A stretch of DNA of 64,000 nucleotides from an uncultured Acidobacteriota bacterium (lineage in GTDB: Bacteria; Acidobacteriota; Blastocatellia; Pyrinomonadales; Pyrinomonadaceae): assembly GCA_937859595.1 (NCBI GenBank), contig CALMAH010000038.1, forward strand, positions 59,119 to 123,118, read 5' to 3'. Position 1 is the first letter of the stretch. The number at the start of each line of letters is the position of its first letter. Positions 17,943-34,624 of the stretch are shown here, one piece after another. Below the pieces are notes generated by a model that ran no database searches, had not been told where the DNA came from, and saw only the letters and a program-made list of their open reading frames with translations. A program made the translations under genes and the position numbers.

Positions 17943-19301
17943 TCAGTCCTCCGAAAGAAGTTGGGCCGCGAGAGCCTCAGCCTGCTGCCTTATCTCAGGT
18001 ATTGCGGTCGACTCCCAAAGGATCCCCTTCAGGGCAGTTCCCAAGGTTCGCAGTGCCGGCGATGGGCGGCCCATAGAGTCTAATAAGACCCCGTCGGGTG
18101 TGGCATCGAGCCCGAGCGAGAGTTCATCGCATCTGATAGCGCCTTTGCGGAGAAGACTTTGTATAAGCCTGCTTTCTACGTGACGAAAATTTGCCTGCGA
18201 CCCGATACAATTGAAGATCGCATCCGACTCCAGGTAGTTAATATCGCCGTCGATAACGTGATTGACGAGGAATTTGTCGCCGTCATGTGTGATGTTCCGA
18301 AGCCTGCCTTTCAGTATCCGAAGCCTGCCGCTCTCTTGCATTTCGTCGATCACCGAGGCCGCTCCGGGCGCCATTCTGTGACGAGCCGCATTCCAGTAAC
18401 GGCTTAGGTGCTGCATAAAATAACGCTTTTCGCTTGTCGGCAATCCGAGCCAAAGAGCCTGGGTATGCGGGCGGACGGAGTCGATAACGGCACGCCAGTC
18501 GCTTCCATTTGAAGAAGCGTGGTCGATATGGCGGCGAACACAGGTAAAGATCTCGGTAATGCGTTTTGAACCGTTTAGCTCGCCTATGAAGCTGGGGTAT
18601 TCATACCCAAGCTTGTGTACGGCGGGCAACAGGCCGCGTGTTGAGATCGCTGATATCCTGCCTTTATGCCCATCGGTGTAGAGCCGCAACGCAACATCGA
18701 CCATCGAGAGCCCGGTACCGATGATCAATATCTCATCTGTGTCAGATATGCGTTCGTATGCCTGCGGATCCCATACGTTATGAATATATTTCGGATGGGA
18801 AATGAACTTTAGGTCAGGGACAGTCGGATGGGGCGGCAAAAAATTCCCGAACGCTAACACCACACGAGATGTCTGTATCACCTCGCCCGAAGCAAGCGTT
18901 ACATACGCAGACGAGATGTCGGGCGTTAGGTCAACAACCTCATCATCCACGAGATCCAGCGTTGCATAGCTGCCGAATGTCTTCGAGGTAATGTCCAACA
19001 ACTCTCTAAGATATTTCCCGAAAAGGGCACGGGGTACAAAATCCGTCGGGGCATATTCAAACCCGCCAGCTATGAGCCAATCGTGGAAGTGGCCCGGCTC
19101 CTTTGGAAAAGCGCTCATCTTGGCAGCCGGGACGTTCAAAAGATGGAAGGGGGACTCGGTTGAATACGCGACGCCGCGGCCGACGCTTTTGTGTTTTTCG
19201 ATAAGGTCGATGGTGATCGGTTCACCGCCGCTATTCCTCAGAAGCTGGATGGCGAGGAGCGTTCCGCTAGCTCCGCCGCCGACTATTGTTATTCTCTTCA
19301 A
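17943..19301 (-). CDS. FAD/NAD(P)-binding oxidoreductase (PF13454-like)
   Basis: KRITIVGGGASGTLLA is a Rossmann motif. I prefer the TTG at 19301 because AGGAGGTG lies 8 nt upstream; the ORF track begins at a GTG at 19376. Confidence 0.7.
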   Translation of the reverse strand: MKRITIVGGGASGTLLAIQLLRNSGGEPITIDLIEKHKSVGRGVAYSTESPFHLLNVPAAKMSAFPKEPGHFHDWLIAGGFEYAPTDFVPRALFGKYLRELLDITSKTFGSYATLDLVDDEVVDLTPDISSAYVTLASGEVIQTSRVVLAFGNFLPPHPTVPDLKFISHPKYIHNVWDPQAYERISDTDEILIIGTGLSMVDVALRLYTDGHKGRISAISTRGLLPAVHKLGYEYPSFIGELNGSKRITEIFTCVRRHIDHASSNGSDWRAVIDSVRPHTQALWLGLPTSEKRYFMQHLSRYWNAARHRMAPGAASVIDEMQESGRLRILKGRLRNITHDGDKFLVNHVIDGDINYLESDAIFNCIGSQANFRHVESRLIQSLLRKGAIRCDELSLGLDATPDGVLLDSMGRPSPALRTLGTALKGILWESTAIPEIRQQAEALAAQLLSED

Positions 19302-19605
19302 GATCTGACACCTCCTATTTGTGATCAACAGAAGGCATCGCTGAGACACGAAGAGGTTGTGAAGCACAGTGCCCACAACCTCTTGAGGTTTCGATCAATG
19401 TCCTTCTTCGTTACGCCTACGAGGTTAGCTGACGGGCTGGAAGCGAAGAATCTTTCTCTGCTGCTGCAGATTAGCCCCGGCTTTGCATCGGCAAAGCATC
19501 TGGTTCCCCCGTGTTTTTTTCTCATCGAAAAAAACTTCGGCAATAAAATTTGAATTAGGTTAGCAAATCCGTACAGAAAAAATCAAGGAAATAATCTCCC
19601 TGCTA

Positions 19606-21222: not shown

Positions 21223-21754
21223 CAGGCCCGCGCAATTATGCCCACGCCACCCACACGAAGTCAATCGCCCCCGCGGAGTGGCAGTCACGGTCTGTCCGCT
21301 ATCGGCACTAAGGGCCACATCAAACTGCCCGGTACGCGAATCGCGGACATTTGTAGAAGGCCGCGAACCAAAAGCCTTTTGCACATTTCACCGCTGATCG
21401 ACCCGGCGAGACCGCCCGACACACCCCAAGCGAGATAGGAAAGTCCTCCACTTCGACCATAAACCCGGGTCAAAGCCGAGCCACCCCGCGTAGTAAGGAC
21501 ATCCCCGCCAACGGCGGTCACACAACTTTCCGACGGGGCCTCGCGCCCCCAAACGGAAAGCTGTGAATAAGGCAATCCTTTATCGAAGATCCCGGCCAGC
21601 AGTAACAAAAAAAATACCTAAACTAAAATTTTGGATTCAAATCCTCAAGAGCCGCCTAATAGTTTTCGTTTTGCCTTTACAGTAGTCCCCGACGAAAAGC
21701 CTCGTTCTGAACCAATGCAGATGTTCGGTGAAGCGTTTTGCAGAAACAGAAGTT

Positions 21755-21763
21755 TGGGATATA
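21755..21763 (+). promoter_or_regulatory. Possible extended -10 element (TGgGATATA) for the res operon
   Basis: TGn + GATATA lies 25 nt upstream of the ATG at 21788. There is no good -35. Confidence 0.25.
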
Positions 21764-21787
21764 TTTTGTGTCGTTCGAGAAGTTCCC

Positions 21788-24700
21788 ATGAGCGATAACC
21801 CAATACTAAACAACCCATACGACGAGCCTCGGCTACACTATGGTCAAACTTCCGACAATTCCCTGAATTATGAGGATGTGCGGAAAGGCCGCCGAGTATT
21901 TGATCCAAACTCCGAAAGACAACCCAATCCAACGAAAAAGGGAAGACAAAAGAAGCTCGCTTTCCCGATTGAGCCCGAGATCGACGCGGAAAAGCATATT
22001 ATCAATCTGATACGGAAAGAAGTCGGGGCTTGGCGGTCCAACGGATATCCGGAAACAACACGCGTAACAAGCGAATTGCTCCATTATTGGTTCAACGACC
22101 GTGATCGAGAGACCTGGCAACGCCTTTTCTTTGCGCAGCGTGAAGCTGTTGAGACTGCGATATGGCTTAACGAGGTTGCCGAACGATCCAATGCCGGCCA
22201 CAACATCCTTAGAATTTTGCGCGATTCACAATTGACGGTCGGTGATCGAGCCGAAGACCAATTGCCACGCGTCGCCTTCAAAATGGCGACCGGAACAGGT
22301 AAAACTGTGGTCATGGCGACGTTGGTACTTTACCACTTCGCCAATCGCCGGGAATACAAGAACGATGTTCGCTTTGCAGACTACTTTCTTATTATTGCAC
22401 CCGGCGTAACCATTAAGGATCGCTTAGGGGTACTTTTCGTCGACACACGAAACCTTCGTGAATTTGAACTCGAGGATTACTATCATCAAAGACATCTCGT
22501 ACCGCCAAGTCTTCAAGATAGTATCCAGAATCTTAATGCGCGACTTGTGATTACGAACTATCACTCTTTTTTGCCGAAGACGCTCCAGGGAAACAAAAAG
22601 AGTCCGTTCGACGGAAAGACCGATGTTCATGGAAATAAGCTAATAGGCGAAAACAAAGAGGATTTCGGCCTAGTCGTAAAGCGCATACTCGATAAATTCA
22701 AACCCGGAAGCCGTCTCTTAGTGCTAAACGATGAGGCTCACCACTGCTATCTTCCTAAAACGGACAAGAAGACCACCGACAACGAAGAGATAAACGAAAA
22801 TGAACGCGCAGCGGTCTGGTTTACCGGCTTGAGAGAGGTCGCGAAACGCTACAAGGTGCACAGCGTTTATGATCTTTCCGCGACCCCCTACTATCTAAAC
22901 GGATCGGGATATGAACCTTACAGTTTGTTCCCCTGGGTCGTAACTGACTTTGGGTTGATCGAGGCTATCGAGGCAGGCCTTGTTAAGATCCCGTTCCTTT
23001 CGGAGAGCGATAACACACAAGACCTTGACCAACCGTTTTTGGCGAATCTCTACACCCGGATAGTTGAACTAGATAAAAATGCATTCCCCAGAAAAGGACA
23101 GAGAAGAACGAGAGCACAAGCTAATCAAGAAGGCGTGATTCTTTCAGAAGCTCCACCAAAGCTTCCGCCGCAACTCCTTTCTGCCTTCGATATGTTCTAC
23201 AGGAACTACATAGATTACGCGAAAGGTGAAAGGCAAAGGCTTGAGGCTAGGCGCGATCTCTTCACGCCACCGCCGGTTTTTATCGTCGTTTGTAATAATA
23301 CGACCGTTTCTAAAGAGGTCTACAAATATCTTGCCGGGTATGAGTTTCACAATGGCGACGGTGAAATTCAGACCGTACCGGGAGCGAAAGAGCAGTTCAG
23401 CAACTACGACCAGAACGGAAGGCCAAAAAAGAGGCCACCGACTCTACTCATTGACAGCGACGCATTAGAGAATTCTGACCAGATCAATGACGACTTCAAG
23501 AAGATATTTGTTGAAGAGATCAAAGAGTTTCGCAAGGATTATACGCGGGTTCACGGGCAAGGAAGTGCGGAAAATATATCGGATGCCCAAATACTCCGCG
23601 AGGTCGTAAACACGGTCGGACAACAAGGAAAGTTGGGACAGGATATTCGATGTGTTGTCTCCGTTTCGATGCTCACCGAGGGTTGGGACGCCAACACTGT
23701 TACGCACATCGTTGGCGTGCGAGCATTTGGTTCGCAGCTTCTTTGCGAACAGGTTGCGGGTCGTGCTCTTCGCCGTGTGAGCTACATTCTTCAAGGCTAT
23801 GATAAGGACGGCGAACCGACGGAGGATAAGAGGAAGATCGTATCTCAGAAATTCCCTCCGGAATACGCACATATTATCGGGATACCGTTCAAGCTGTTCA
23901 AAGGCGGAAAAGCTGCACCGGCTCCGAATCCGGTTGAGACAACTCAGATCAAAGCGCTAAAGGAAAAAGAAGAACTAGAGATCACTTTCCCGAACGTAGA
24001 TGGCTATCGAATAGACACTGCTGGAAACAAACTCGAAGCAAATTTCGATGACCTCGAACCATTTGAAATAGACGGGACTAAAATTCCCGTAGAAACGATC
24101 ATGGGAAATGCAATCTCTCCTACTGAGATCAAGATGGGCATCGAACAGGTTCTCGAACGCCGCGAAGGAGAACTTATCTACTGGATCACAAAGGAAGTGA
24201 TCCGCCACAAATACTCGGACGACGACGGCAATCCGCAATTCCGTTACTTCGGCGACCTAAAAGGAATCGTAACTCGCTGGTACAACGAGCGGGTGAAGGT
24301 AATAGGAATTGCAGGAAGGGATTATCGCAAGCTTTTGTTCTTTCTCGACGGTAAAACCATTGCGTCTCACATCGTACGAGCGATAAACACGCATGAGAAC
24401 AATTCTGAATTTATTCGGCCCGTTCTGAACCACTACAATCCATTTGGGAGCACCCGGCATGTTCGCGGCGTAACAACAAAGCCGGTCTGGGAAACGGCGA
24501 AGTCTCATGTGAATTACGTCGTCGAAGACAGCGGTTGGGAAGGTATCGCCGCGAAAGCTCTTGATGAAATGGAGATCATCAGCTACGTAAAGAACAGCTT
24601 TCTAGAATTCCGAATACCATATATCAAGGACGGCGAAGAAGCGGGCTATTATCCTGATTTTATTATTCGAGCGAACGGCAAAGACGGAAAACCCATAAAT

Positions 24701-24892
24701 CTTATCCTCGAAGTTACAGGCTCAAACAAGAAACATAAGGCCGAAAAGAAATGGTACACCGAGAACAGATGGATTCCGGCGGTTAATGCCGTCCGAGAAA
24801 AACACGGAATGGATGAATGGCGCTACATTGAGATCCGGGATGATATACGGGATTTCAAGAATGAGATTCTACAAGAAATAACGACAATCTAA
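21788..24892 (+). CDS. res: Type III-like restriction enzyme Res subunit (SF2 helicase plus C-terminal PD-(D/E)xK-like nuclease)
   Basis: MATGTGKT (motif I), LNDEAHH (DEAH), SATP and QVAGRALRR (motif VI). C-terminal YYPDFII...ILEVTG nuclease-like motif. The start is at MSDNPILNNPYDEP. Confidence 0.85.
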   Translation: MSDNPILNNPYDEPRLHYGQTSDNSLNYEDVRKGRRVFDPNSERQPNPTKKGRQKKLAFPIEPEIDAEKHIINLIRKEVGAWRSNGYPETTRVTSELLHYWFNDRDRETWQRLFFAQREAVETAIWLNEVAERSNAGHNILRILRDSQLTVGDRAEDQLPRVAFKMATGTGKTVVMATLVLYHFANRREYKNDVRFADYFLIIAPGVTIKDRLGVLFVDTRNLREFELEDYYHQRHLVPPSLQDSIQNLNARLVITNYHSFLPKTLQGNKKSPFDGKTDVHGNKLIGENKEDFGLVVKRILDKFKPGSRLLVLNDEAHHCYLPKTDKKTTDNEEINENERAAVWFTGLREVAKRYKVHSVYDLSATPYYLNGSGYEPYSLFPWVVTDFGLIEAIEAGLVKIPFLSESDNTQDLDQPFLANLYTRIVELDKNAFPRKGQRRTRAQANQEGVILSEAPPKLPPQLLSAFDMFYRNYIDYAKGERQRLEARRDLFTPPPVFIVVCNNTTVSKEVYKYLAGYEFHNGDGEIQTVPGAKEQFSNYDQNGRPKKRPPTLLIDSDALENSDQINDDFKKIFVEEIKEFRKDYTRVHGQGSAENISDAQILREVVNTVGQQGKLGQDIRCVVSVSMLTEGWDANTVTHIVGVRAFGSQLLCEQVAGRALRRVSYILQGYDKDGEPTEDKRKIVSQKFPPEYAHIIGIPFKLFKGGKAAPAPNPVETTQIKALKEKEELEITFPNVDGYRIDTAGNKLEANFDDLEPFEIDGTKIPVETIMGNAISPTEIKMGIEQVLERREGELIYWITKEVIRHKYSDDDGNPQFRYFGDLKGIVTRWYNERVKVIGIAGRDYRKLLFFLDGKTIASHIVRAINTHENNSEFIRPVLNHYNPFGSTRHVRGVTTKPVWETAKSHVNYVVEDSGWEGIAAKALDEMEIISYVKNSFLEFRIPYIKDGEEAGYYPDFIIRANGKDGKPINLILEVTGSNKKHKAEKKWYTENRWIPAVNAVREKHGMDEWRYIEIRDDIRDFKNEILQEITTI

Positions 24893-24896
24893 CAGA

Positions 24897-26660
24897 ATGG
24901 CATTTCAAACCCCAATAACCATTAAAGAAGCCGTCGATAATATTCGGAGAAGGAAATACCTACTTCCTTCTATCCAGAGAAAGCTCGTTTGGAATTCTGG
25001 GCAGATCGAAAGGCTTTTTGATTCCTTGATGCGAGACTATCCCATCGGGTCATTTCTCTTTTGGCATGTTGATCGCGAACGTCTCAACGACTTCACGTTC
25101 TATGAATTCATCAAGGATTATCACGAACGTGACAACCGAAACAACGCCAAGGCGGATCCGATCAGCGACTCGGATATTACGGGCATTCTCGACGGTCAGC
25201 AGCGGCTTACGTCCCTTTATATCGGCCTTTTTGGTTCTTACGCTGAGAAAGAAAAGTCTAAGCGATGGGACAACGACAAGGCGTTTCCCAAACGCTTTCT
25301 GCATTTGAATCTTCTGAAAGGCTACACAGAAGATGAAAACGATCTTGAACTTGCGTATGATTTTTATTTCATGACCGAGGAAGAGGCTAGGGAGAACCGT
25401 ACCGACGACCCTGAGAACTTCTTTTGGTTTAGGGCCAGCGATATATTCACGTTTAAGAGCCACGGCGACATCGGTTCATTTTTGATGAGGGAGATCTCGC
25501 AAACCGCTGACCCTGAAAAGGCCCAATTTGCGAACGACACTCTTTTCAAGTTCTACTCTCTTGTTAACGACCGCCCGGTAATCAATTTTTTCCTCGAAAA
25601 GAATGGTGATCTTGATAAGGTGCTGAACATCTTTGTACGCGTGAACAGCGGCGGAACCCAACTAAGCTACGCAGACCTATTGCTATCGATTGCATCTGCA
25701 AGTTGGAACAAGCTGGATGCTCGCGAAGAGATCACTAATTTTGTCGAGGAAATTTCCGATCAGGGGACTGGATTTCGATTTAGTCAGGATTTCGTACTGA
25801 AGTCCGCCTTAGTGCTTTCTGACCTGCCAAACATCCAATTCAAGGTTAACAATTTTAACAACGCCAATATGCGGACCATCGAGGAAAATTGGGGGACGAT
25901 GTGCGATGCTATCAGACTGGCGGTTAACCTCGTTGAATCCTTCGGATATACACGCGAAACGCTGAGCTCCAATTACGCACTCATACCGATCGCTTATTAT
26001 TTGTTGAAAAAAGGAAACCCGCCCAACTTTGTTGAGTCGGCGAATTTTCTGAGCGACCGCCAAAACATCCGCAAATGGTTGATCGCATCACTCTTAAAAC
26101 GCGCGTTTGGCGGTCAGCCGGACACGGTTCTTAGACCGATCCGTCAGATACTGCAAAGGGATTCCGGAGCCTTCCCGATCGATGCGATAGTTGATGAGTT
26201 CAAGGGAAAAAATAAATCTATCGTTTTCACTGACGATGATATTTCTGCCCTTTTCGATCATTATTACGGAAGCCAATACACCTTTTCTACCCTGGCGGTC
26301 TTTTACCCGACCCTCGACTTTAAGAACAAATTTCACGTTGACCATATCTTCCCGAAGAGCCTGTTCAAAAGAAAGAACCTCCTTAATCGAGGAATAAGCG
26401 AACCAGACGCCGATGTGTTTATGGAGAACGTTGACTACCTCGCAAATCTTCAACTTCTCGAGGGGATTCCTAATATGGAAAAATCCAACAAGGAATTCAA
26501 GGACTGGCTCGAAGAGGCTTATCCTGATAAAGATGCGAGACGAGCATATATGGAAAGGAACTACATCCCCGACGTTGATCTTAGCCTTGAGAATTTTGGC
26601 GAGTTTTTTGAAGAAAGAACTAAATTGATGACAAGCAGATTTGCTCAATTGATCAAGTAA
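24897..26660 (+). CDS. GmrSD-family protein (DUF262 ParB-like NTPase plus DUF1524 His-Me nuclease)
   Basis: [20 protein letters not shown] and DGQQRLTS are DUF262 motifs. C-terminal HVDHIFPKS ... [15 protein letters not shown] is DUF1524/HNH-like. It starts 4 nt after the res stop. Confidence 0.85.
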
Positions 26661-26686
26661 GATTTGATTCTCGTGCAAAGCGAATT

Positions 26687-29317
26687 ATGACCAAGAAGAT
26701 CGACAGCATTGAGCATAAGGAAGAGAAGCGGGCATATATTCCCAGCAAGGAAGAGGCGGGGTTTGAGGATGCGAATCCGCATGTTCGGCAAGGGAAAAGG
26801 ACTCTTGAGCTTCCCGTTAATCCGGTCGTGACCCGCGGGCAGGACCCGGAATTGTTCTGGATGAACAAATACGGGAATGACGACCGCGAAGAGCTTTTGC
26901 GTGTAGATATTCGTTCGCTTTATCGCCACGAACATATTGAGCCGGAAACGCTGATCAGAAATCTTTACCGAATAACCGAGGACACAGAGGACCCGCAGGG
27001 CGATATCTTTGGCGAGATACCCGAAGCTTTCAAGGACATGATCGAACGTGACGATCTGGAGAAAGTTGCGGGATATTACGAACATAGTGACAAATGGAGA
27101 AATCGCCTAATTCAAGGCGACAGCCATTTGGTAATGGCGAGCCTTCTGGAAAGAGAAGGAATGGCCGGAAAGGTCCAAATGATCTATGTCGATCCGCCCT
27201 ATGGGATCAAATACGGATCTAACTGGCAGATCAAGCTAAATAATCGAGATGTGAAAGACGGAAGCGACGATCACCTGACCGGAGAACCCGAGGTCATCAA
27301 GGCATTTCGGGATACATGGGAACTCGGTATTCATTCCTATCTTTCATACATCCGCGACCGGCTGCTGATAGCAAAAGAACTCCTAACCGAAAGCGGAAGC
27401 TGTTTTGTCCAGATATCCGATGAGAATGTACATTTGGTTAGGAACGTGATGGATGAGGTTTTTGGAAGTGGTAACTTCTGTGGATTAATTCCATTCAAAA
27501 AGACTACCGGTTTCGGCTCGGAACTGATCGATTCGACCTACGATTTCCTTCTCTGGTATGCGAAAGCCAAGGAATCAGTGAAGTACCGAACTCTATATTT
27601 AGACCGCCCGCCCGACAAGACCGCAAGCGCATATAGCTGGATTAAGGAAACAAATGGAACATACCGGCGTCTAAAAAAGAGCGACTTCGATGATGCGGGA
27701 AACATCATTGTGGATCACGACTTTAGGTTCAGCACTTCGAGTCTTATGTCGTCTGGTGAATCTGAAAAGGGCTCGCAGCCGTTTGTTTTTGAAGGCAAGG
27801 AATACCGCCCCGCAAAGGGAACGCATTGGAAGACTCATCAGAAGGGGTTAAACAAATTGGCTGAAACAGGCCGTCTTATAGGAGTCAAAAATACGCTGGC
27901 CTACATACGAAAGGAAAACGACTTCCCTCTGGTAACTTTCGACAACGTTTGGAATGACACGCTCCAGAGTACATTTGCAATTGAAAAGCTCTACGTCGTT
28001 CAGACTACTTTAAAGGTCCTCCAGCGGTGTATTCTCATGACAACAGATCCAGGTGATTTGGTATTTGACCCGACTTGTGGAAGTGGAACAACTGCCGTTG
28101 TTTCGGAGCAATTCGGGCGTCGCTGGATTACGATTGACACAAGCCGAATCGCATTAAACATCGCCAAGACGCGTCTGATGACTGCAACGCTGCCGTACTA
28201 CAAACTTTACGACGAGACGGCAAAGGATATTCGGCAAGGATTTGTTTACAAGACAGTTCCTCACATTACCTTGAAGTCCCTCGCGAATGACGAGCCGCCC
28301 GCGACCGAGACGCTCTATGACAAACCGGAGATAGACACAAAGAGAATGCGGGTCAGCGGGCCTTTTACGGTCGAGACTTTGCAAAATTTTGAACCTGTCT
28401 TGCCCGAAGAAATAGCCGAAGAAACAATGGTCAGCGGCGAGAGCTTTGAGCAGATCATCAAAGACCATCTGCTTGCTACCGGAATCAAGAATGGCCGCAA
28501 AGATGAGCAGGTAATGTTCTCCCGCGTCGAAATACTTGCCGGCGAACGCCTTCACGCCGAAGGTTTTTATCAGAACGGCGTCGGAGAAAAGAAAGCCTAT
28601 TTCCACATCGGCCCGAAGTTCGGCACAGTCAGCAAGAAAGCCGTTAATGAAGCGATCCGGGAATGCCAATCCCGCGGAGATGCCCAATGGCTTGTAATTC
28701 TCGGATTTAGTTTTGAGAGCGACATAGAGGGCGGCACGCATACGACATCAATGGGTAATTTCGAAGTAACCCGCGCCCGCATCCATGATGATCTTTTACA
28801 GGAAGGCCTAAAGAAAAAACCGGCTAAGTCCGCCGCCTCTTTCGTGACCATAGGCGAACCGGATATTGTGCTCGTGTCAGAATCTACCACCCCGTCAGGC
28901 GAAGCGGCTGACACCCCTCCTATCCAGAAGGGGAGCTTTATGCAGGTCGAGATCAGAGGCCTCGATATCTACGACCCTATCAAGGACGAAGTTAAAGCCC
29001 GCGATCTTCACGATATCGCCTACTGGATGGTGGACGACAATTACGACGGATCGAACTTTATCGTCCGGCAGGTCTTCTTCTGTGGCGGCGACAAAGACGA
29101 GTTCGCCAAATGGAAAAAAGGCCTCGACACACTGGCCAAAGACAAAACCCGCAAACGCGCCGAGAAAACCCTAAAGATAGAAATAGACGAAGAAGCCTTT
29201 GACCGAATCTACGGCCACACTTCGCACCCAATAAAAATAAAAAACGAAGGCCAAAAGATCGCCGTAAGAGTAATCAGCCAATACGGCGAAGAATCAACGA
29301 AGGTCCTTACTGTTTAA
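26687..29317 (+). CDS. mod: Beta-class N6-adenine (DPPY) DNA methyltransferase, Type III Mod-like, with a long C-terminal extension
   Basis: [15 protein letters not shown] (motif IV) precedes [13 protein letters not shown] (motif I), which is the beta-class order. About 400 aa follow motif I. Confidence 0.9.
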
Positions 29318-29323
29318 ACCAAG

Positions 29324-30382
29324 ATGCAGCCTATAAGTGAATACAATTCCGTCGACGAACTTCCATCTTACGAGGAGATTGTTGAATATTTGCGAAAGAA
29401 GAATCGGCCGAGACATCTCTTGGTTGGGAATGGCTTTAGCATGGCTTACGACAGAGACATCTTTTCGTATAATGCACTCGCGCAGTTTGTCGATAACCTA
29501 GAGGATCAGCTTTTGAAGGATCTTTTTACGGCCGTGAATACAAAGAACTTTGAACAGGTAATGCAGCAACTGGAGAGCTTTTCAGAAATCGCTAGGGTTT
29601 TCGGAGCCGATTCGCAACTCATCCAACGGATTGCCGACGCCAGCGACTCCCTGAAGCGGAGCCTCCTAAATGCTGTCAAAGAGCTCCATCCCGAGCATGT
29701 ATTCAAAATTTCACGGGAAAAAAGCGCAAAGTGCGCTCAGTTTCTTTCGGGCTTCCTCGGAAGCGGCGGTACTATCTTCACGACAAATTATGATCTTCTG
29801 CTTTACTGGGTCTTAATGAGAAACGGTTTAGACAATAAAGATGGATTCGGCCGTGAACCACTCAATCCTGGCGTTTGGGAAGACGAGCCCGAGTATTCCG
29901 AACTTAGATGGGGTCTCAACAGTGACCATCAAAATGTGTTTTATTTGCACGGCGCCCTGCACATTTTTGATACTGGTACAGAAATCGAAAAAGAAGAATA
30001 CGACAATGCCCATTACCTTCTCGAAAAAGTTAAGGAGCGGATAGACGACGAGGATTACCCGATATTTGTAACAGCAGGAACAGCCCAACAAAAGATGGTA
30101 CATATCCGACATAATCGCTATCTGTCCTTTTGTTATGATGCTTTGGAACAGATCCGAGGATCACTTATAGTTTTTGGATTCGGCTTCGGACAATACGACA
30201 CTCATATCATCGACGCGATAAATAAGGCAGCGCTTCATGGTGCCAAAGGCACCGAAAAACTTCACAGTATATATGTCAGCATTAGAACGAACGAAAGCCT
30301 TGAGTATCTGAAGTCGATCGAAGATCGATTTCAACTCAAAGTGAACGGATTTCAGTCGGACACTGCGTGCGTCTGGGAGTGA
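29324..30382 (+). CDS. SIR2-like (DUF4917-type) protein, predicted NAD+-consuming effector
   Basis: LLVGNGFS (aa 32-39), IFTTNYDLL (aa 151-159), YLHGALH (aa 207-213) and LIVFGFGFGQYDTHI (aa 281-295) match the GAGxS / TTNYD / hG / GySl-D signatures of prokaryotic SIR2_2-type proteins. It starts 6 nt after the mod stop. Confidence 0.7.
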   Translation: MQPISEYNSVDELPSYEEIVEYLRKKNRPRHLLVGNGFSMAYDRDIFSYNALAQFVDNLEDQLLKDLFTAVNTKNFEQVMQQLESFSEIARVFGADSQLIQRIADASDSLKRSLLNAVKELHPEHVFKISREKSAKCAQFLSGFLGSGGTIFTTNYDLLLYWVLMRNGLDNKDGFGREPLNPGVWEDEPEYSELRWGLNSDHQNVFYLHGALHIFDTGTEIEKEEYDNAHYLLEKVKERIDDEDYPIFVTAGTAQQKMVHIRHNRYLSFCYDALEQIRGSLIVFGFGFGQYDTHIIDAINKAALHGAKGTEKLHSIYVSIRTNESLEYLKSIEDRFQLKVNGFQSDTACVWE

Positions 30383-30397
30383 TGGGCGGGTAGCGGG

Positions 30398-31453
30398 TCA
30401 CAACGCACCGTCCGTCTTCAACAAAGTAAGCAATTGAGCCCGCCGGTCTTTCCAGTGCCGGTCGGAGGTTTCCGTCTCAATAAAAGTAAGTAGCGCTTCG
30501 CGTTTTTCTTCGTCAATCTCATTCACATGATTTTCGAGTAGACCAATGAGAAAATCACATACATCGTCGTCCGCTATTATCCAGTTGACTTGAGAATTGT
30601 TAATATAAGCATCGATGAGATCATTTGCATCATTTACGTCAAAGCTATCGATTTTTGAAAGCGTGCGGATCGTTCCATGGGTCTGAGCAAAAGTCCCACT
30701 TCCCGCTAGATCATTGATTAATAATTGTTTTTCAAGTTCACTCGCGAGCAGAATTTGAGGGAAGTGTTCTTGGAGGAAAGAAGATATTCGTTTATAAAGA
30801 AACATTTCACCGCCGACCTTGGATGTCCATTCATCGCGGAGAAATTGATGAGCGGTTTGATCCCGAAACCCGCTCTCCCAGTCTTGGTCGTACGAAATGA
30901 GATGAAGATTATAATTCGAATCTAGATACTCGTTTACGAACGGGCTATCTCTTACTCTAGCCAGAAGTAGTTCCCAGTTAATCTCGTCGCCTAGAGGATC
31001 CGTCCGTTTTCCAGGGGGATTCCCTACATCACGGCGGACTCTCGCGTTACTGAATGCCAGACTGGTGGTTGCAATCAGTTCGGCTGAACTAAAGATTTGC
31101 TCAATCACCTGGTCCGCAACCAAATTCCGCGCTCGCATATCCTCTTCGATTCGGCTCAAGAGTTGATTCTTTGCTTTCTCGTAATCTTTTTTTCCCGAAA
31201 TTAGGTCGCTATACTCGTCGTAGCCTTTAATTAGTTGCGGAAAGGGCGGAAAGTCCTTTTTTCTGAATTCAATAATAGTATTAGCGATCTTACTGTCACG
31301 ATTCCTTCGAAACTCTGAGATCACCTGATCGGTTACCAGCAACTGGATTTTGCGCGATTTAATAAGAACATCGATTTTCCTAAGTTCCTCCAAATCCTCA
31401 TTAGAGAAATCAAAGAAATCGAGGTAAATATTTGTGTCAATAAAAATATTCAA
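30398..31453 (-). CDS. PIN-like domain protein (DUF4935-like N-terminus) with an uncharacterised C-terminal half
   Basis: N-terminus (M)NIFIDTNIYLDFF ... LLVTDQVISEF is PIN-like. TTG start with AGGAG 8 nt upstream. It is convergent with the SIR2-like gene across a 15-nt gap. Confidence 0.65.
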   Translation of the reverse strand: MNIFIDTNIYLDFFDFSNEDLEELRKIDVLIKSRKIQLLVTDQVISEFRRNRDSKIANTIIEFRKKDFPPFPQLIKGYDEYSDLISGKKDYEKAKNQLLSRIEEDMRARNLVADQVIEQIFSSAELIATTSLAFSNARVRRDVGNPPGKRTDPLGDEINWELLLARVRDSPFVNEYLDSNYNLHLISYDQDWESGFRDQTAHQFLRDEWTSKVGGEMFLYKRISSFLQEHFPQILLASELEKQLLINDLAGSGTFAQTHGTIRTLSKIDSFDVNDANDLIDAYINNSQVNWIIADDDVCDFLIGLLENHVNEIDEEKREALLTFIETETSDRHWKDRRAQLLTLLKTDGAL

Positions 31454-31849: not shown

Positions 31850-32181
31850 GGAAATAGTCCCTGCCGGTCGCGTGTCTGCCTGTTCGGCCAAACGGTCCGG
31901 GTACGGCGACTGGTGCACCAGGTTTTTGAGCGAATCGGGATGGAAAGACAGAGCCATTCCGCAAATAGGGGCGCAAAGGCGAATTAAAAGATAGAAGGAT
32001 AAGGAATAAAGAGAAGAAGGAACCACGAAACACTAAAATGCCCTAAATGGAGGGAAGGCGGATAGCGGACAGTTGATAGCAATCAGCGGTCGGCTTTCAG
32101 CAGTCAGTAGTCAGCCGTTGATGGGAACGGGCGGCGGTTTTGTGCTGCGGGTGGGCGTAGGGTGGTCGTTTTTCGGTGGTT

Positions 32182-32325
32182 GGCGGTTCGGGCGCGGGGT
32201 TTGGGGTGCGGTTGGGGTGCGGGTCGGGTGCGGAAGCGGGGCGGCGAAGGGTTTTCGGCGCGTAGGATTACGCGACCCCCGCGGCGATATTGCTGAAAAG
32301 CCTGTAAATATGGGGGTTGGGCGTG
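32182..32325. repeat. G-rich direct repeat, copy 1
   Basis: Starts GGCGGTTCGGG and ends with a 24-nt block identical to copy 2 (GAAAAGCCTGTAAATATGGGGGTT). The core is roughly 80 percent identical by eye. Confidence 0.6.
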
Positions 32326-32487
32326 ATATTGTGTTGTTAGGGTGGCGATAGTTGGCGATCTTTCGTGGTTAGGAGGCCTAATTTCGCGGAAATCCGGTCC
32401 GCATTCATTGGGTTTCAGAAGCATCTGTACGATAAACGTGTGGCCTGATAGCTGCCGAACACGGTTTGGGTATTCGGTAGAGTTTCG

Positions 32488-32907
32488 ATGCGTATGACAA
32501 AGAACCGAGAGATGGCCGAAACAAGGCCGTTGGTAACGATCAGTCGGGGGCCGTGTCTTGGGACGTGTCCGGTTTATTCGGCGGAGATCTATTCGGATGG
32601 GACCGTGGTTTATGTCGGGGAGATGTTTGTAGAGGTTGTGGGCGTGCGGCGGCACAGGATATCTGAAGCGAAGGTGCGAGAGTTGATCCGGGCGTTTGAA
32701 AAGGCGGATTATTTTTCGTTGAAGAGTGTTTACACGGCGGAGATAACTTGTCTGCCTACGACGGTCACCAGTTTTGAATGGGAGGGGCGGCGAAAGTCGG
32801 TGAAGAATTATTTCGGCGCTCCGAGAAAGCTTGAAAGGCTAGAGAACGCGATCGACCGTATTGCGGGGTTGAAGGAACTGATAGGAGATCAGGAGTGGGC
32901 GGGATGA
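32488..32907 (+). CDS. Small Cys-motif protein (C-x-G-x-CP-x-Y, DUF6438-like)
   Basis: 139-aa ORF with ISRGPCLGTCPVYSAEIYSDGTVVY. The family assignment is from memory only. Confidence 0.45.
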   Translation: MRMTKNREMAETRPLVTISRGPCLGTCPVYSAEIYSDGTVVYVGEMFVEVVGVRRHRISEAKVRELIRAFEKADYFSLKSVYTAEITCLPTTVTSFEWEGRRKSVKNYFGAPRKLERLENAIDRIAGLKELIGDQEWAG

Positions 32908-32972
32908 CTGACGAGTGACGTGTCGGGAAGCGTATGAGTGTGCCGTTTGTTGAGCATGATGTGGGGTTGGGG

Positions 32973-33105
32973 GGCGGTTCGGGAGGCGGTTCGGCACCGG
33001 TTCGGCCTCGGAAGGGGGGCGGCAAAGGCTTTTGGGTGTGTAAAATTACGCGGCTGGGGGGCGGTATTGCGGAAAAGCCTGTAAATATGGGGGTTTGGGG
33101 TGGTT
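32973..33105. repeat. G-rich direct repeat, copy 2
   Basis: Same GGCGGTTCGGG start and the same AAAAGCCTGTAAATATGGGGG block as copy 1. It abuts the 21-bp array. Confidence 0.6.
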
Positions 33106-33122
33106 TTGGGCGGCGGGAGGTG

Positions 33123-33450
33123 GGCTGACAAAGCCCGTGGGAAGTGTTCCCAAGCCTTTGGGAAGTGTTCCCAAGCTCTTGAGAAGTGTTCTCAAGCCCT
33201 TGAGGAGTGTTCCCAAGCCCTTGAGAAGTGTTCCCAAGTCCTTGAGAAGTGTTCCCGAGCCCTTGAGTAGCGTTCCCAAGCTCTTGAGTAGCGTTCCCAA
33301 GCCCTTGAGAAGTGTTCCCAAGTCCTTGAGAAGTGTTCCCAAGCTCTTGAGAAGTGTTCCCAAGCCTTTGAGAAGTGTTCCCGAGCCTTTGAGAAGCGTT
33401 CCCAAGCCTTTGAGTAGCGTTCCCAAGCCCTTGAGAAGTGTTCCCAAGCC
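33123..33450. repeat. Tandem array of a 21-bp dyad-symmetric unit (consensus GTGTTCCCAAGCCCTTGAGAA), 14 full copies plus partial units at both ends
   Basis: Exact 21-nt phasing from 33144 to 33437, with a 13-nt partial unit at 33438-33450 and a degenerate unit before 33144. Each unit contains TTCCCAAG-CC-CTTGAGAA, whose arms are 7/8 complementary. Confidence 0.9.
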
Positions 33451-33529
33451 GATTTCCGGCGTGCATATCGGCTCCGGAAGCGTAGAGATCTACTTCTGAA
33501 AAAAAATCTCTCGAATGTGAAAAAAGTTC

Positions 33530-33559
33530 TTGCAATAATTTTCCAACATCGGATATAAT
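33530..33559 (+). promoter_or_regulatory. Near-consensus sigma70-type promoter (TTGCAA-18 nt-TATAAT)
   Basis: TTGCAA at 33530-33535 and TATAAT at 33554-33559. This is about 240 nt upstream of the ORF at 33802. Confidence 0.45.
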
Positions 33560-33801
33560 CTCGCTGCTTAGTTGGACTCAAAGGCGATCTACGTTTCTTT
33601 GGAAACGCGGTCGGCAGGTAATTTGGGTCTAACTATGCAGCCCCGTTTCGGGGTTTACTCAAAACCAACCTGACGACCACGAAATTCCCATAGATCGTAT
33701 TTCTCCCCAATGTCTTTCTAGGCTTCCGGCCCGGACGCGAGCACGGTTGTGCATTCCCGTCCGGGCCCATCAAAAAATACAAAAATACAGGAGGAAGACA
33801 A

Positions 33802-34500
33802 ATGGTACCTTCAAGAACGTGGTTTTCGAGCAATCTGCAGGAGCGGGCGGCGTGGTTTCAGAATTTTCGCGATCAGTTTGCGGCGTTGGCGACCGGGCTG
33901 GGGTTTACGGCTGCGGATGTGACGGCGGTGGACGAGGACAATGCGGCGTTCCAGTGGCTGGCGGCCAATGCGGTAACGGTCGATGCCTTTTCGGCGGCGA
34001 TGACGGCCTATCGGCGGCGGATAACCGAGGGGGACGACGGCGATCCGGCGGCCGAACTGCCCGATCCGCCGGTGTTCGGGCTGGTGCCGGTGGTGCTGCC
34101 GGGGATATTCGAGCGGCTTGTCCGGCTGGTGGAGCGCATCCGCGTGGCACCGAGCTATTCCGAGGAAGAGGGCGCCGCGCTCGGCATCATCCCCTCACAG
34201 AGCGGGTCCGTCTCGCCGGACGATATGCAGCCAAACCCGAAGCTAAAGGCCCTGCCCGGCGGCATTGTCAAGGTCGCGTTTGTCAGGGGTAAGACACAGG
34301 GGATCGAAGTGCATATGAAGCTGGACGGTGAAGAGAATTGGGCCAACATGGGCAAGTTCTACAATTCGCCCGCCGAGATCATTGTCCCCGCCAATGCGCA
34401 AAACGTGCCGCGTGCCGTTCAGATCCGCTGCCGGTTTGTGCTAAACAACAGCCCGGTCGGGCAATTTTCGGACATCGACGAGATCTCGACAAAGATCTAG
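33802..34500 (+). CDS. Hypothetical protein (helical N-terminal half, beta-rich C-terminal half)
   Basis: AGGAGGAAG RBS 5 nt before the ATG, a 232-aa ORF, and a strong terminator downstream. I recognise no family. Confidence 0.6.
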   Translation: MVPSRTWFSSNLQERAAWFQNFRDQFAALATGLGFTAADVTAVDEDNAAFQWLAANAVTVDAFSAAMTAYRRRITEGDDGDPAAELPDPPVFGLVPVVLPGIFERLVRLVERIRVAPSYSEEEGAALGIIPSQSGSVSPDDMQPNPKLKALPGGIVKVAFVRGKTQGIEVHMKLDGEENWANMGKFYNSPAEIIVPANAQNVPRAVQIRCRFVLNNSPVGQFSDIDEISTKI

Positions 34501-34523
34501 CCACGTGTCATAGAAAGCAAAAG

Positions 34524-34563
34524 GGCCGTCCCGCGTATGCTTCGCGCGAGACGGCCTTTTTTT
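34524..34563. terminator. Rho-independent terminator between convergent genes
   Basis: GGCCGTC..GACGGCC stem followed by T7. Confidence 0.65.
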
Positions 34564-34624
34564 GTTCACATGCGGCCTGCTTTTGTTGGCTATCTGCCGG
34601 ACTGCTGTGCGTTGCCGGCTGAGG

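What the first reader, a model, noticed from the sequence alone, without database searches (positions are those of the whole stretch)
33123..33450. 14-15 tandem copies of a 21-bp dyad-symmetric unit in non-coding DNA
Seen in sequence:
- There is exact 21-nt periodicity from 33144 to 33437, with partial units at both ends.
- The consensus is GTGTTCCCAAGCCCTTGAGAA.
- Each unit holds two 8-bp arms, TTCCCAAG and CTTGAGAA, that are 7/8 complementary around a 2-bp centre.
- Variation is confined to a few positions (GTG/GCG, CCC/CCT/CTC/TCC, GAGAA/GAGTA/GGGAA).

Inference:
- A 2-nt centre is too short for an RNA hairpin loop, so the symmetry points to a dimeric DNA-binding protein.
- 21 bp is about two helical turns, so all sites face the same side. 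This resembles plasmid or phage iterons and centromere-like parS/parC arrays.
- No Rep or Par gene is nearby, so it may be a relic of an integrated element or a binding platform for an unknown factor.
- It is not a CRISPR array because there are no spacers.

All three minus-strand frames and one plus-strand frame are open across the array, giving heptad peptides such as LGNTSQG. That looks like a by-product of the repeat rather than coding.
Basis: partly seen in the sequence, partly recalled or inferred. Interest (0 to 1): 0.6.

Follow-up and report, generated by a model that had tools for sequence, protein, structure and literature searches.

The report
Phased 21-bp repeat array upstream of gene
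The 15-copy 21-bp repeat is real, non-coding and stable, and it is the upstream part of a previously undescribed gene module of soil Acidobacteria (Blastocatellia) in which a 21-bp-period array, with a different unit sequence in each lineage, almost always precedes the strong promoter of an orphan 232-aa protein.

Summary
Observation confirmed: TRF finds 15.2 copies of a 21-bp unit at 33131-33450 (14 full units at 33144-33437).

It is not an isolated relic. The same unit forms arrays at two other loci of this genome. About ten further arrays with periods of 14, 21 or 42 bp and other unit sequences also exist.

The array lies 80 bp upstream of a strong sigma70-type promoter (33530-33559) that drives an orphan 232-aa protein (33802-34500). 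This protein has a novel helical domain plus an FN3 domain.

In 31 of 34 homologous loci from other Pyrinomonadaceae, and 13 of 16 in an independent set, a 21n-period array sits in the same place. The control rate is 6 of 400 random windows. The unit sequence differs between lineages.

Tested and not supported:
- coding
- RNA or ssDNA hairpin
- REP/RAYT
- hypervariable VNTR
- iteron or par membership
- selection for intrinsic curvature

Best reading (confidence 0.45): a helically phased platform for cooperative binding of a sequence-specific protein encoded elsewhere, which controls the adjacent promoter.

The parts
33072..33092 (+). Small hairpin motif GAAAAGCCTGTAAATATGGGG, a frequent companion upstream of arrays. 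A second copy lies at 32295-32315.
   Evidence: The motif lies 50-100 nt upstream of arrays at C13, C15, C24, C37 and C43 and at the contig ends C34 and C42. It also precedes the arrays of C16, L016, L070 and L022. In congeners it occurs before other things, so it is not specific to arrays.
33093..33143 (+). Leader spacer with the GGGCT-GACAA-AGCCC hairpin (33122-33136) and a degenerate first unit.
   Evidence: 87% identical over 70 nt to the stretch preceding the C13 array.
33131..33450 (.). Tandem array with period 21 and 15.2 copies. There are 14 full units at 33144-33437, consensus GTGTTCCCAAGCCCTTGAGAA.
   Evidence: The same unit occurs at C13:239187-239480 and C19-end/C24-start. Copy number is identical in three independent assemblies.
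33448..33472 (+). Post-array hairpin GCCGAT-N13-ATCGGC in the shared trailer.
   Evidence: The trailer ...CCGnTTnnCGGCGTGC... is shared with the C13 and C19 copies. L069 has CCGATC...GATCGG at the same place.
33499..33559 (+). A-tracts (33499-33506 and 33520-33525), then -35 TTGCAA (33530-33535), an 18-nt spacer and -10 TATAAT (33554-33559).
   Evidence: Promoter scan gives 10 of 12 matches. The same layout of A-run, TTGCNA/TTGACA and TATAAT/CAGAAT scores at least 9 of 12 in 22 of 36 homologous loci.
33560..33801 (+). 5' UTR of about 240 nt with conserved hairpins.
   Evidence: Homologous UTRs occur in L069 and L016, with compensated stems such as cgtttc-tttg-gaaacg, cgtttc-ttcg-gagacg and cgtttc-atgg-gaaacg. 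There is no Rfam match.
33802..34500 (+). Orphan 232-aa protein ('p232'), made of a novel N-terminal helical domain, a linker and a C-terminal FN3-like domain.
   Evidence: No Pfam, PHROG, NCBIfam or PADLOC hit. AF2 pLDDT is 84 for the whole protein and 89 for the N-domain. Fold search finds only FN3 matches, and the N-domain has no neighbour. The family has 1093 clusters at 50% identity.
34519..34563 (+). Intrinsic terminator: GGGCCGTC...GACGGCC followed by T7.
   Evidence: Read from the sequence.

Best explanation
The array is non-coding and acts as double-stranded DNA. It holds about 15 sites spaced exactly two helical turns apart, so all sites lie on one face of roughly 300 bp of DNA.

It is the upstream half of a self-contained gene module of Blastocatellia/Pyrinomonadaceae. 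The module runs: small hairpin motif, 21-bp-period array, hairpin, A-tract with a strong sigma70-type promoter, long 5' UTR, 232-aa orphan protein, strong terminator.

The array most likely works as a cooperative binding platform (an operator or upstream-activating array) for a sequence-specific, probably oligomerising, DNA-binding protein encoded elsewhere in the genome. Occupancy of the platform would set transcription from the promoter 80 bp downstream. The two other arrays with the same unit (C13, C19/C24) would be bound by the same factor.

Shown:
- the array exists and is non-coding
- its association with the gene family across genera
- conservation of period and position with free unit sequence
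- stable copy number
- short-term constraint on the unit

Inferred: protein binding, the regulatory effect, and that the binder is not the module's own product.
For: - Association with the gene: 31 of 34 homologous loci carry a 21/42/63/84/105-bp-period array within 1 kb upstream, against 6 of 400 random windows. In an independent set of named genomes the figure is 13 of 16. Four of the five paralogs in this genome show the same layout.
- Period: the autocorrelation peak is at lag 21 or 42 in all 25 arrays examined, including degenerate ones.
- Site-like conservation: in degenerate arrays a core is conserved while spacer positions drift. Examples are TGCAG-CC-CTGCA, TAGGT...ACCTA and TGCGGnnTGCA.
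- Dyads: 11 of 31 units fall in the top 16% for dyad score (p = 0.0065).
- Short-term constraint: the unit is 19/21 identical between the window and its 85%-identical relative, against 73% at third codon positions and 71-72% in the spacer and UTR.
- Stability: copy number and unit order are identical in three independent assemblies, one of them a strain with a diverged leader.
- No strand bias: n = 37 arrays, GC-skew sign test p = 0.51.
- Position: a strong promoter with an A-tract follows the array at 40-120 nt in most loci.
Against: - No binding protein is identified.
- The only gene in the module is acidic (median pI 4.9) and has no known DNA-binding fold.
- This genome alone has about ten unit types, which would need many specific binders or one unusual reader.
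- No isolated single sites of the unit exist elsewhere in the genome.
- Dyad symmetry is absent from several long arrays (C16, L039).
- The array-to-promoter distance varies from 40 to 250 nt.
- The promoter is predicted, not mapped.
Confidence: 0.45

Rival explanations
1. Architectural DNA without a sequence-specific binder. Any unit repeated every two helical turns adds its bends or flexibility in phase. The array would then be a curved or wrappable segment, or a platform for a nucleoid protein, that insulates or boosts the strong promoter.
For: Period and position are conserved while unit sequence is free. All periods are multiples of 21, never 7, 14 or 28, upstream of this gene family. Many unit types occur in one genome.
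Against: In a wedge model the real units are not more bent than composition-matched shuffles. Median rank is 0.37, and the window unit gives 10 degrees per 21 bp against a shuffled mean of 13 (parameters recalled from memory). The unit sequence is constrained between close relatives. Degenerate arrays keep a defined core. Both observations point to sequence reading.
Confidence: 0.15
2. A locus-associated satellite with no function. A lineage-specific mutational process that favours repeats of 7n bp keeps generating arrays in the permissive gap upstream of these genes.
For: Tandem repeats of this genome are dominated by periods of 7, 14 and 21. Arrays with the same unit also lie upstream of unrelated genes. 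Higher-order 42- and 63-bp structure shows unequal exchange.
Against: Occupancy is 85-90% at one position across genera, against 1.5% background. Only 21n periods are seen there. Old, degenerate arrays keep register and core. Copy number is stable. The unit is better conserved than synonymous sites.
Confidence: 0.15
3. The array is transcribed and acts as RNA, for example as a multi-hairpin sponge or as processed 21-nt units.
For: The window unit can form 8-bp stems around either a 2-nt or a 3-nt centre. A conserved leader precedes the array.
Against: No promoter-like site lies upstream of the array. The arrays show no strand asymmetry. Stem mismatches are not compensated: C.A in 25 of 28 units and T.T in 10 of 28. 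Many sister units have no dyad. There is no Rfam hit.
Confidence: 0.08
4. Iterons or a centromere (parS/parC/sopC-like) left by an integrated plasmid or phage.
For: The repeats are direct, with two-turn spacing and about 15 copies, and they lie at the edge of a low-GC defence island.
Against: No rep, par or integrase gene lies within 12 kb. There is no DnaA box within 32000-34600. The array sits in a chromosomal setting next to syntenic housekeeping genes. The conserved partner is a non-Rep, non-Par protein in 44 of 50 loci.
Confidence: 0.05
5. The array encodes a heptad-repeat protein, (SVPKPLR)n on the plus strand or (LKGLGTL)n on the minus strand.
For: The consensus unit is open in five frames. 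The three commonest variants (positions 2, 14, 20) are all synonymous in the minus frame LKGLGTL.
Against: Counted as distinct variant types there is no synonymous excess (4 against 7, p = 0.39). ORF starts and ends differ in all four homologous arrays, and one runs antisense through the p232 promoter. Eight of 30 sister arrays have stops in all six frames.
Confidence: 0.03
6. REP-like palindromic units mobilised by a RAYT/IS200-type Y1 transposase.
For: One copy of the array (C24:1-100) lies 60 bp from the start of a Y1 transposase gene. L015 also has a Y1 gene upstream of its array.
Against: The Y1 gene has its own terminal inverted repeats, unrelated to the unit. Only about four Y1 genes exist in the genome. 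The unit occurs at three loci only, always head-to-tail, and hairpin pairing is not preserved.
Confidence: 0.03

Closest known systems
Plasmid iterons (for example the seven 22-bp repeats of R6K gamma ori, or the 22-bp repeats of pPS10; from my own knowledge)
   Same: Head-to-tail direct repeats of about 21-22 bp, which place all sites on one face of the helix.
   Different: There is no rep gene, DnaA box or replicon context. The array occurs at several chromosomal loci and has about 15 copies. Its conserved partner is an orphan FN3 protein, and the unit sequence differs for each paralog.
Centromere/operator arrays bound by small dimeric repressors: omega-protein heptad arrays of pSM19035, parC of R1 (ParR), sopC of F (12 x 43 bp, each with an inverted repeat) (from my own knowledge)
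   Same: Arrays of short, often dyad-containing repeats at or just upstream of a promoter. They are read cooperatively and have system-specific sequences that avoid cross-talk.
   Different: There is no partition ATPase and no RHH or ParB gene in cis. The module is monocistronic and its product has no DNA-binding fold. The period is strictly 21n.
Promoter-proximal VNTRs / contingency repeats (7-bp repeats upstream of hmw1A/hmw2A in Haemophilus influenzae; MIRU-VNTR in mycobacteria) (from my own knowledge)
   Same: A tandem repeat lying between upstream DNA and the promoter of a single gene.
   Different: Here the units are diverged (89% match). Copy number is identical in three independent assemblies, and old degenerate arrays persist. 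The array does not behave as a slippage switch.
REP/BIME elements with RAYT transposases
   Same: Short, imperfectly palindromic intergenic units.
   Different: The arrangement is tandem and head-to-tail rather than dispersed or inverted. There are three loci rather than hundreds, and no RAYT is linked to the unit.
STRR heptanucleotide tandem repeats of heterocystous cyanobacteria (from my own knowledge)
   Same: A lineage-specific abundance of intergenic tandem repeats with 7n periods and unknown function.
   Different: STRR units are 7 bp and are not tied to one gene family or to a fixed position relative to a promoter.

Membership tests
Iteron-type replication origin | Several direct repeats of 17-22 bp at about two-turn spacing | tested here: met
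   15.2 copies with period 21.
Iteron-type replication origin | An adjacent rep gene whose product binds the repeats | tested here: not met
   Pfam scans of the ten flanking ORFs (21.7-37.8 kb) show no Rep. The conserved neighbour is an orphan FN3 protein.
Iteron-type replication origin | DnaA box(es) and an AT-rich unwinding element next to the repeats | tested here: not met
   No TTATCCACA match with up to 1 mismatch in 32000-34600. The only AT-rich patch is the promoter and A-tract at 33486-33560.
Iteron-type replication origin | The repeats support replication and are bound by an initiator | not testable with these tools
   This needs a replication assay or EMSA.
Partition centromere (parS/parC/sopC) | An array of repeats bound by a centromere-binding protein encoded in the same operon, together with a ParA/ParM/TubZ NTPase | tested here: not met
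   No par-type gene lies within 12 kb. The module is monocistronic in all loci examined.
Contingency locus / promoter VNTR | Copy number differs between closely related strains | tested here: not met
   L074, L075 and L077 all have 15.2 copies in the same unit order. L076 is truncated by a contig end. The sample is small.
REP/RAYT system | Many dispersed copies, a conserved hairpin, and a RAYT gene flanked by the units | tested here: not met
   The unit occurs at three loci only. Stem mismatches are uncompensated. The adjacent Y1 gene has other inverted repeats.
CRISPR array | Repeats separated by unique spacers of similar length | tested here: not met
   The units are contiguous with no spacers. 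The genome's true CRISPR array is elsewhere, on contig C35.
Protein-coding heptad repeat | One conserved open frame with start and stop outside the repeat, and an excess of synonymous variation | tested here: not met
Phased operator / upstream-activating array (functional class, not a homology family) | Repeated sites at integral helical-turn spacing directly upstream of a promoter, with a conserved core and variable spacer | tested here: met
Phased operator / upstream-activating array (functional class, not a homology family) | A demonstrated binding protein and an effect on transcription | not testable with these tools

The most novel reading that the evidence does not exclude
Blastocatellia have an undescribed cis-regulatory or architectural device. 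Each copy of a large orphan gene family (over 1000 clusters) carries its own private array with a strict 21-bp period. The array would be read by a new kind of DNA-binding system. One option is a diversifying family of array-specific binders that co-evolve with the units. Another is a reader or 'ruler' that recognises period rather than sequence, possibly the orphan helical domain of the module's own product acting as an oligomer. This would be a chromosomal analogue of plasmid incompatibility determinants, used for gene-by-gene control.
Probability: 0.2. Interest if true: 0.8.

Novelty: new variant of a known kind. Interest (0 to 1): 0.62.

Why it matters
If correct, this gives a concrete and testable handle on gene regulation in Acidobacteria, a dominant but genetically almost unexplored soil phylum.

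The module has a fixed layout: hairpin motif, 21-bp phased array, strong promoter, structured leader, orphan protein, strong terminator. It recurs in several copies per genome, and each copy has its own repeat sequence.

Arrays that keep a strict two-turn period while their sequence is replaced are unusual for chromosomal promoters. They suggest either a family of rapidly co-evolving DNA-binding partners or a mechanism that reads period rather than sequence.

The work also ties an abundant protein family of unknown function (about 1100 clusters at 50% identity, all about 230 aa) to a recognisable regulatory signature. That signature can be used to find and classify family members.

Tried and rejected
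- Coding. Eight of 30 sister arrays have stops in all six frames. There is no synonymous excess by variant type. ORF ends are not conserved among the four homologous arrays.
- RNA or ssDNA hairpin. The arrays show no strand bias, and the C.A and T.T mismatches are uncompensated. Dyads are absent from several arrays. There is no Rfam hit.
- REP/RAYT. The neighbouring Y1 gene has its own inverted repeats and there are only about four Y1 genes.
- Intrinsic curvature. The units are no more bent than shuffled ones (wedge parameters recalled from memory, so this is a soft result).
- Hypervariable VNTR. Three assemblies have the same 15.2 copies.
- Iteron or centromere. There are no rep or par genes and no DnaA box.
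- Sigma-54 promoter. The recurring TTGCC/TTGCA element lacks a GG at N10 spacing (by eye, on the output).
- The module's own product as a classical DNA binder. It is acidic, has an FN3 domain plus an orphan helical fold, and has no structural neighbour.
- The hairpin motif as an array-specific leader. It also precedes unrelated features in congeners.
- An empty site in congeners. Synteny breaks exactly at the module, but the neighbouring DNA differs in each genome, so no boundaries could be defined.
- Searches that returned nothing. The exact unit is absent from 60 related genomes. Two metagenome scans found nothing. Three literature searches found nothing relevant.

Full report
THE OBSERVATION

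Tandem Repeats Finder reports one array at 33131-33450 with period 21, 15.2 copies, 89% matches and no indels. In strict register, 14 full units occupy 33144-33437 and differ from GTGTTCCCAAGCCCTTGAGAA at 0-3 positions. A degenerate unit precedes them and a 13-nt partial unit follows.

The dyad (TTCCCAAG / CTTGAGAA around CC) is present, and a second dyad runs across the GTG junction. But 16% of composition-matched shuffled 21-mers score as well, so on its own the dyad is weak evidence.

NOT UNIQUE AND NOT AN ORPHAN

- The window is C38:59119-123118 of a 3.82-Mb, 44-contig genome.
- The same unit forms a 14-unit array at C13:239187-239480. Another array is split between the end of C19 and the start of C24.
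- The window and C13 copies share about 70 nt of leader and about 25 nt of trailer.
- The exact unit is absent from 36 congeners and 24 other genomes of the class.
- The genome holds about ten further arrays with periods of 14, 21 or 42 and unrelated units. Periods of 7, 14 and 21 dominate its tandem repeats.

THE CONSERVED PARTNER

Eighty bp after the array lie two A-tracts and a near-consensus sigma70-type promoter, TTGCAA-18-TATAAT at 33530-33559. These are followed by a 240-nt leader and an ORF of 232 aa at 33802-34500. The ORF has no Pfam, PHROG, NCBIfam or PADLOC match.

The genome has four paralogs of this ORF. Three of them have the same upstream layout of array, A-tract and promoter. 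One of those three starts at a contig edge, and there only the A-tract and promoter are visible. The fourth paralog has an AT-rich degenerate repeat.

Homologs come from Pyrinomonadaceae/Blastocatellia, and the sources that name them call them hypothetical proteins. They are present in 17 of 121 genomes of the family, with 1-8 copies each. A profile search gives 1093 clusters at 50% identity with E <= 1e-10, nearly all about 230 aa.

THE ASSOCIATION IS NEARLY UNIVERSAL

- With gene orientation taken into account, 31 of 34 homologous loci carry an array with period 21, 42, 63, 84 or 105 within 1 kb upstream. The control rate is 6 of 400 random windows of this genome. One of the three exceptions has only 222 nt of upstream sequence.
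- In an independent set from named species genomes, 11 of 16 loci are TRF-positive and two more have an autocorrelation peak at lag 21.
- The unit sequence differs in every lineage and between paralogs of one genome.
- The autocorrelation maximum is at 21 or 42 in all 25 arrays examined, including one that TRF missed.
- In degenerate arrays a core persists while the remaining positions drift. The core is palindromic in L026 and L032.
- Dyad-rich units are over-represented, with 11 of 31 in the top 16% (p = 0.0065), but several long arrays have no dyad.

WHAT THE ARRAY IS NOT

Coding. Eight of 30 arrays have stops in all six frames. For the window-type unit, the three commonest variants are spaced by multiples of three and are synonymous in the minus frame LKGLGTL. 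Counted as variant types, however, there is no synonymous excess (4 against 7, p = 0.39). ORF boundaries also differ in all four homologous arrays.

RNA or ssDNA hairpins. There is no strand asymmetry over 37 arrays (p = 0.51). The C.A mismatch is kept in 25 of 28 units, and the common GAGTA variant adds a T.T mismatch. No promoter-like site precedes the array and there is no Rfam match.

REP/RAYT. The Y1 transposase gene next to the C24 copy has its own inverted repeats, and the genome has only about four such genes.

Slippage switch. Three independent assemblies, one of them a strain with a different leader, all have 15.2 copies in the same unit order.

Iterons or centromere. There is no rep or par gene within 12 kb and no DnaA box. 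The flank to the right is syntenic chromosomal DNA in congeners.

Curvature-selected DNA. In a wedge model the units are no more bent than shuffles (parameters from memory).

THE PROTEIN

AlphaFold models are confident, with pLDDT 84 for the whole protein and 89 (pTM 0.77) for residues 1-130. The N-terminal domain is a long helical hairpin plus two short helices. A disordered linker joins it to a C-terminal FN3-like sandwich.

Fold searches match only FN3 domains. The N-domain has no neighbour (best E = 3.1) and no sequence relative in the PDB. The family is acidic, with median pI 4.9.

CONSTRAINT ON THE UNIT

- Between the window and its closest relative (L069, 85% amino-acid identity) the unit consensus is 19/21 identical. 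Third codon positions are 73% identical, and the spacer and leader 71-72%.
- In L015 against L017 the differences fall in the spacer part of the unit.
- At 66% protein identity (L070) the unit is unrelated.

The unit is therefore held in the short term and replaced in the long term, while period and position stay fixed.

INTERPRETATION

The best-supported reading is a helically phased platform of repeated sites on double-stranded DNA, immediately upstream of a strong promoter. It would be read cooperatively by a sequence-specific protein and would control the downstream orphan gene. I give this a confidence of 0.45, because binding and regulation are inferred rather than shown.

The main rivals are an architectural role without a specific binder (0.15) and a functionless satellite generated again and again at this locus (0.15). 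Transcribed RNA, a plasmid relic, coding and REP are each unlikely.

The architecture resembles iteron and centromere/operator arrays in geometry. It fails their membership tests, so I file it as a new variant of promoter-upstream repeat arrays. No paper describing it was found.

LIMITS

- The promoter and the binder are predictions.
- Most relatives are metagenome-assembled genomes, in which repeats often break contigs.
- The curvature parameters were recalled from memory.

Noticed in passing
window 21728-31453: A low-GC (0.45-0.49) defence island. It holds a Type III restriction helicase and methylase, GmrSD (PADLOC HEC-05, E = 2.5e-222), a DUF4917/SIR2-like protein (PDC-S21) and a PIN-domain protein. 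The array module sits at its right edge.
   Followed up: partly
window 33560-33801; L069:177-425; L016:4759-5000: The roughly 240-nt 5' leader of the orphan gene is conserved in close relatives, with compensated hairpins. Eight loci from several genera share a leader length of 241-258 nt. There is no Rfam match. It is a candidate new cis-regulatory RNA.
   Followed up: partly
L019, L020, L034, L036, L038, L043, L047 (just downstream of the p232 homologs): Very long perfect hairpins built from two inverted arrays of heptamers or octamers follow the gene and presumably act as terminators. Examples are (GGAGAAG)n/(CTTCTCC)n and (AATTACG)n/(CGTAATT)n. Tandem repeats in the window's genome are dominated by periods of 7, 14 and 21.
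   Followed up: partly
window 32182-32331 and 32951-33108: Two G-rich direct repeats, each ending in the hairpin motif AAAAGCCTGTAAATATGGGGG, bracket the DUF6438 gene (32488-32907). The left copy is followed at 32350-32393 by a stretch that matches the flank of the 42-bp-period arrays at C37 and C15, which looks like a lost or relict array.
   Followed up: partly
genome contigs C15:47513-47651, C37:20660-20836, C43:52973-53106, C8:68919-69252, C36:125-361: Other array families behind the same or similar leaders. They comprise a 42-bp unit containing the palindrome TGACCGGGTCA, a 21-bp unit GAAATGCCnnnGGTCAGCGTA and a 14-bp unit TGGTGAACGCATCC (24 copies). None is next to a p232 paralog.
   Followed up: partly
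genome contig C24:100-1130: A Y1 (IS200-like) transposase with a C-terminal part that looks, by eye, like a DnaA-C-type helix-turn-helix (not checked against Pfam). It is flanked by inverted repeats GGGTCAGACATGCGATA and is inserted next to one copy of the 21-bp array.
   Followed up: partly
window 19399-19552 (-): A c-di-AMP riboswitch (RF00379, 68 bits) upstream of the ORF at 17943-19376.
   Followed up: no
L058 and L059 (congeners G032, G020): The hairpin motif is followed by a near-consensus promoter (TTGACA...TATTAT) and a conserved non-coding stretch of about 600 nt that looks structured. Its identity was not determined.
   Followed up: no
genome contig C35:40073-45590: A genuine CRISPR array with the 29-nt repeat CGGTTCATCTCCACGTGCGTGGAGACAGC and a 61-nt period.
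   Followed up: no
L013:1-4141; genome contigs C13:238327-238926 and C43:51362-52714: RHS/YD-repeat toxin genes or fragments lie next to several arrays. In L013 an RHS protein with a Tox-SHH domain is divergent from the module. This may be coincidence or a shared location in variable regions.
   Followed up: no
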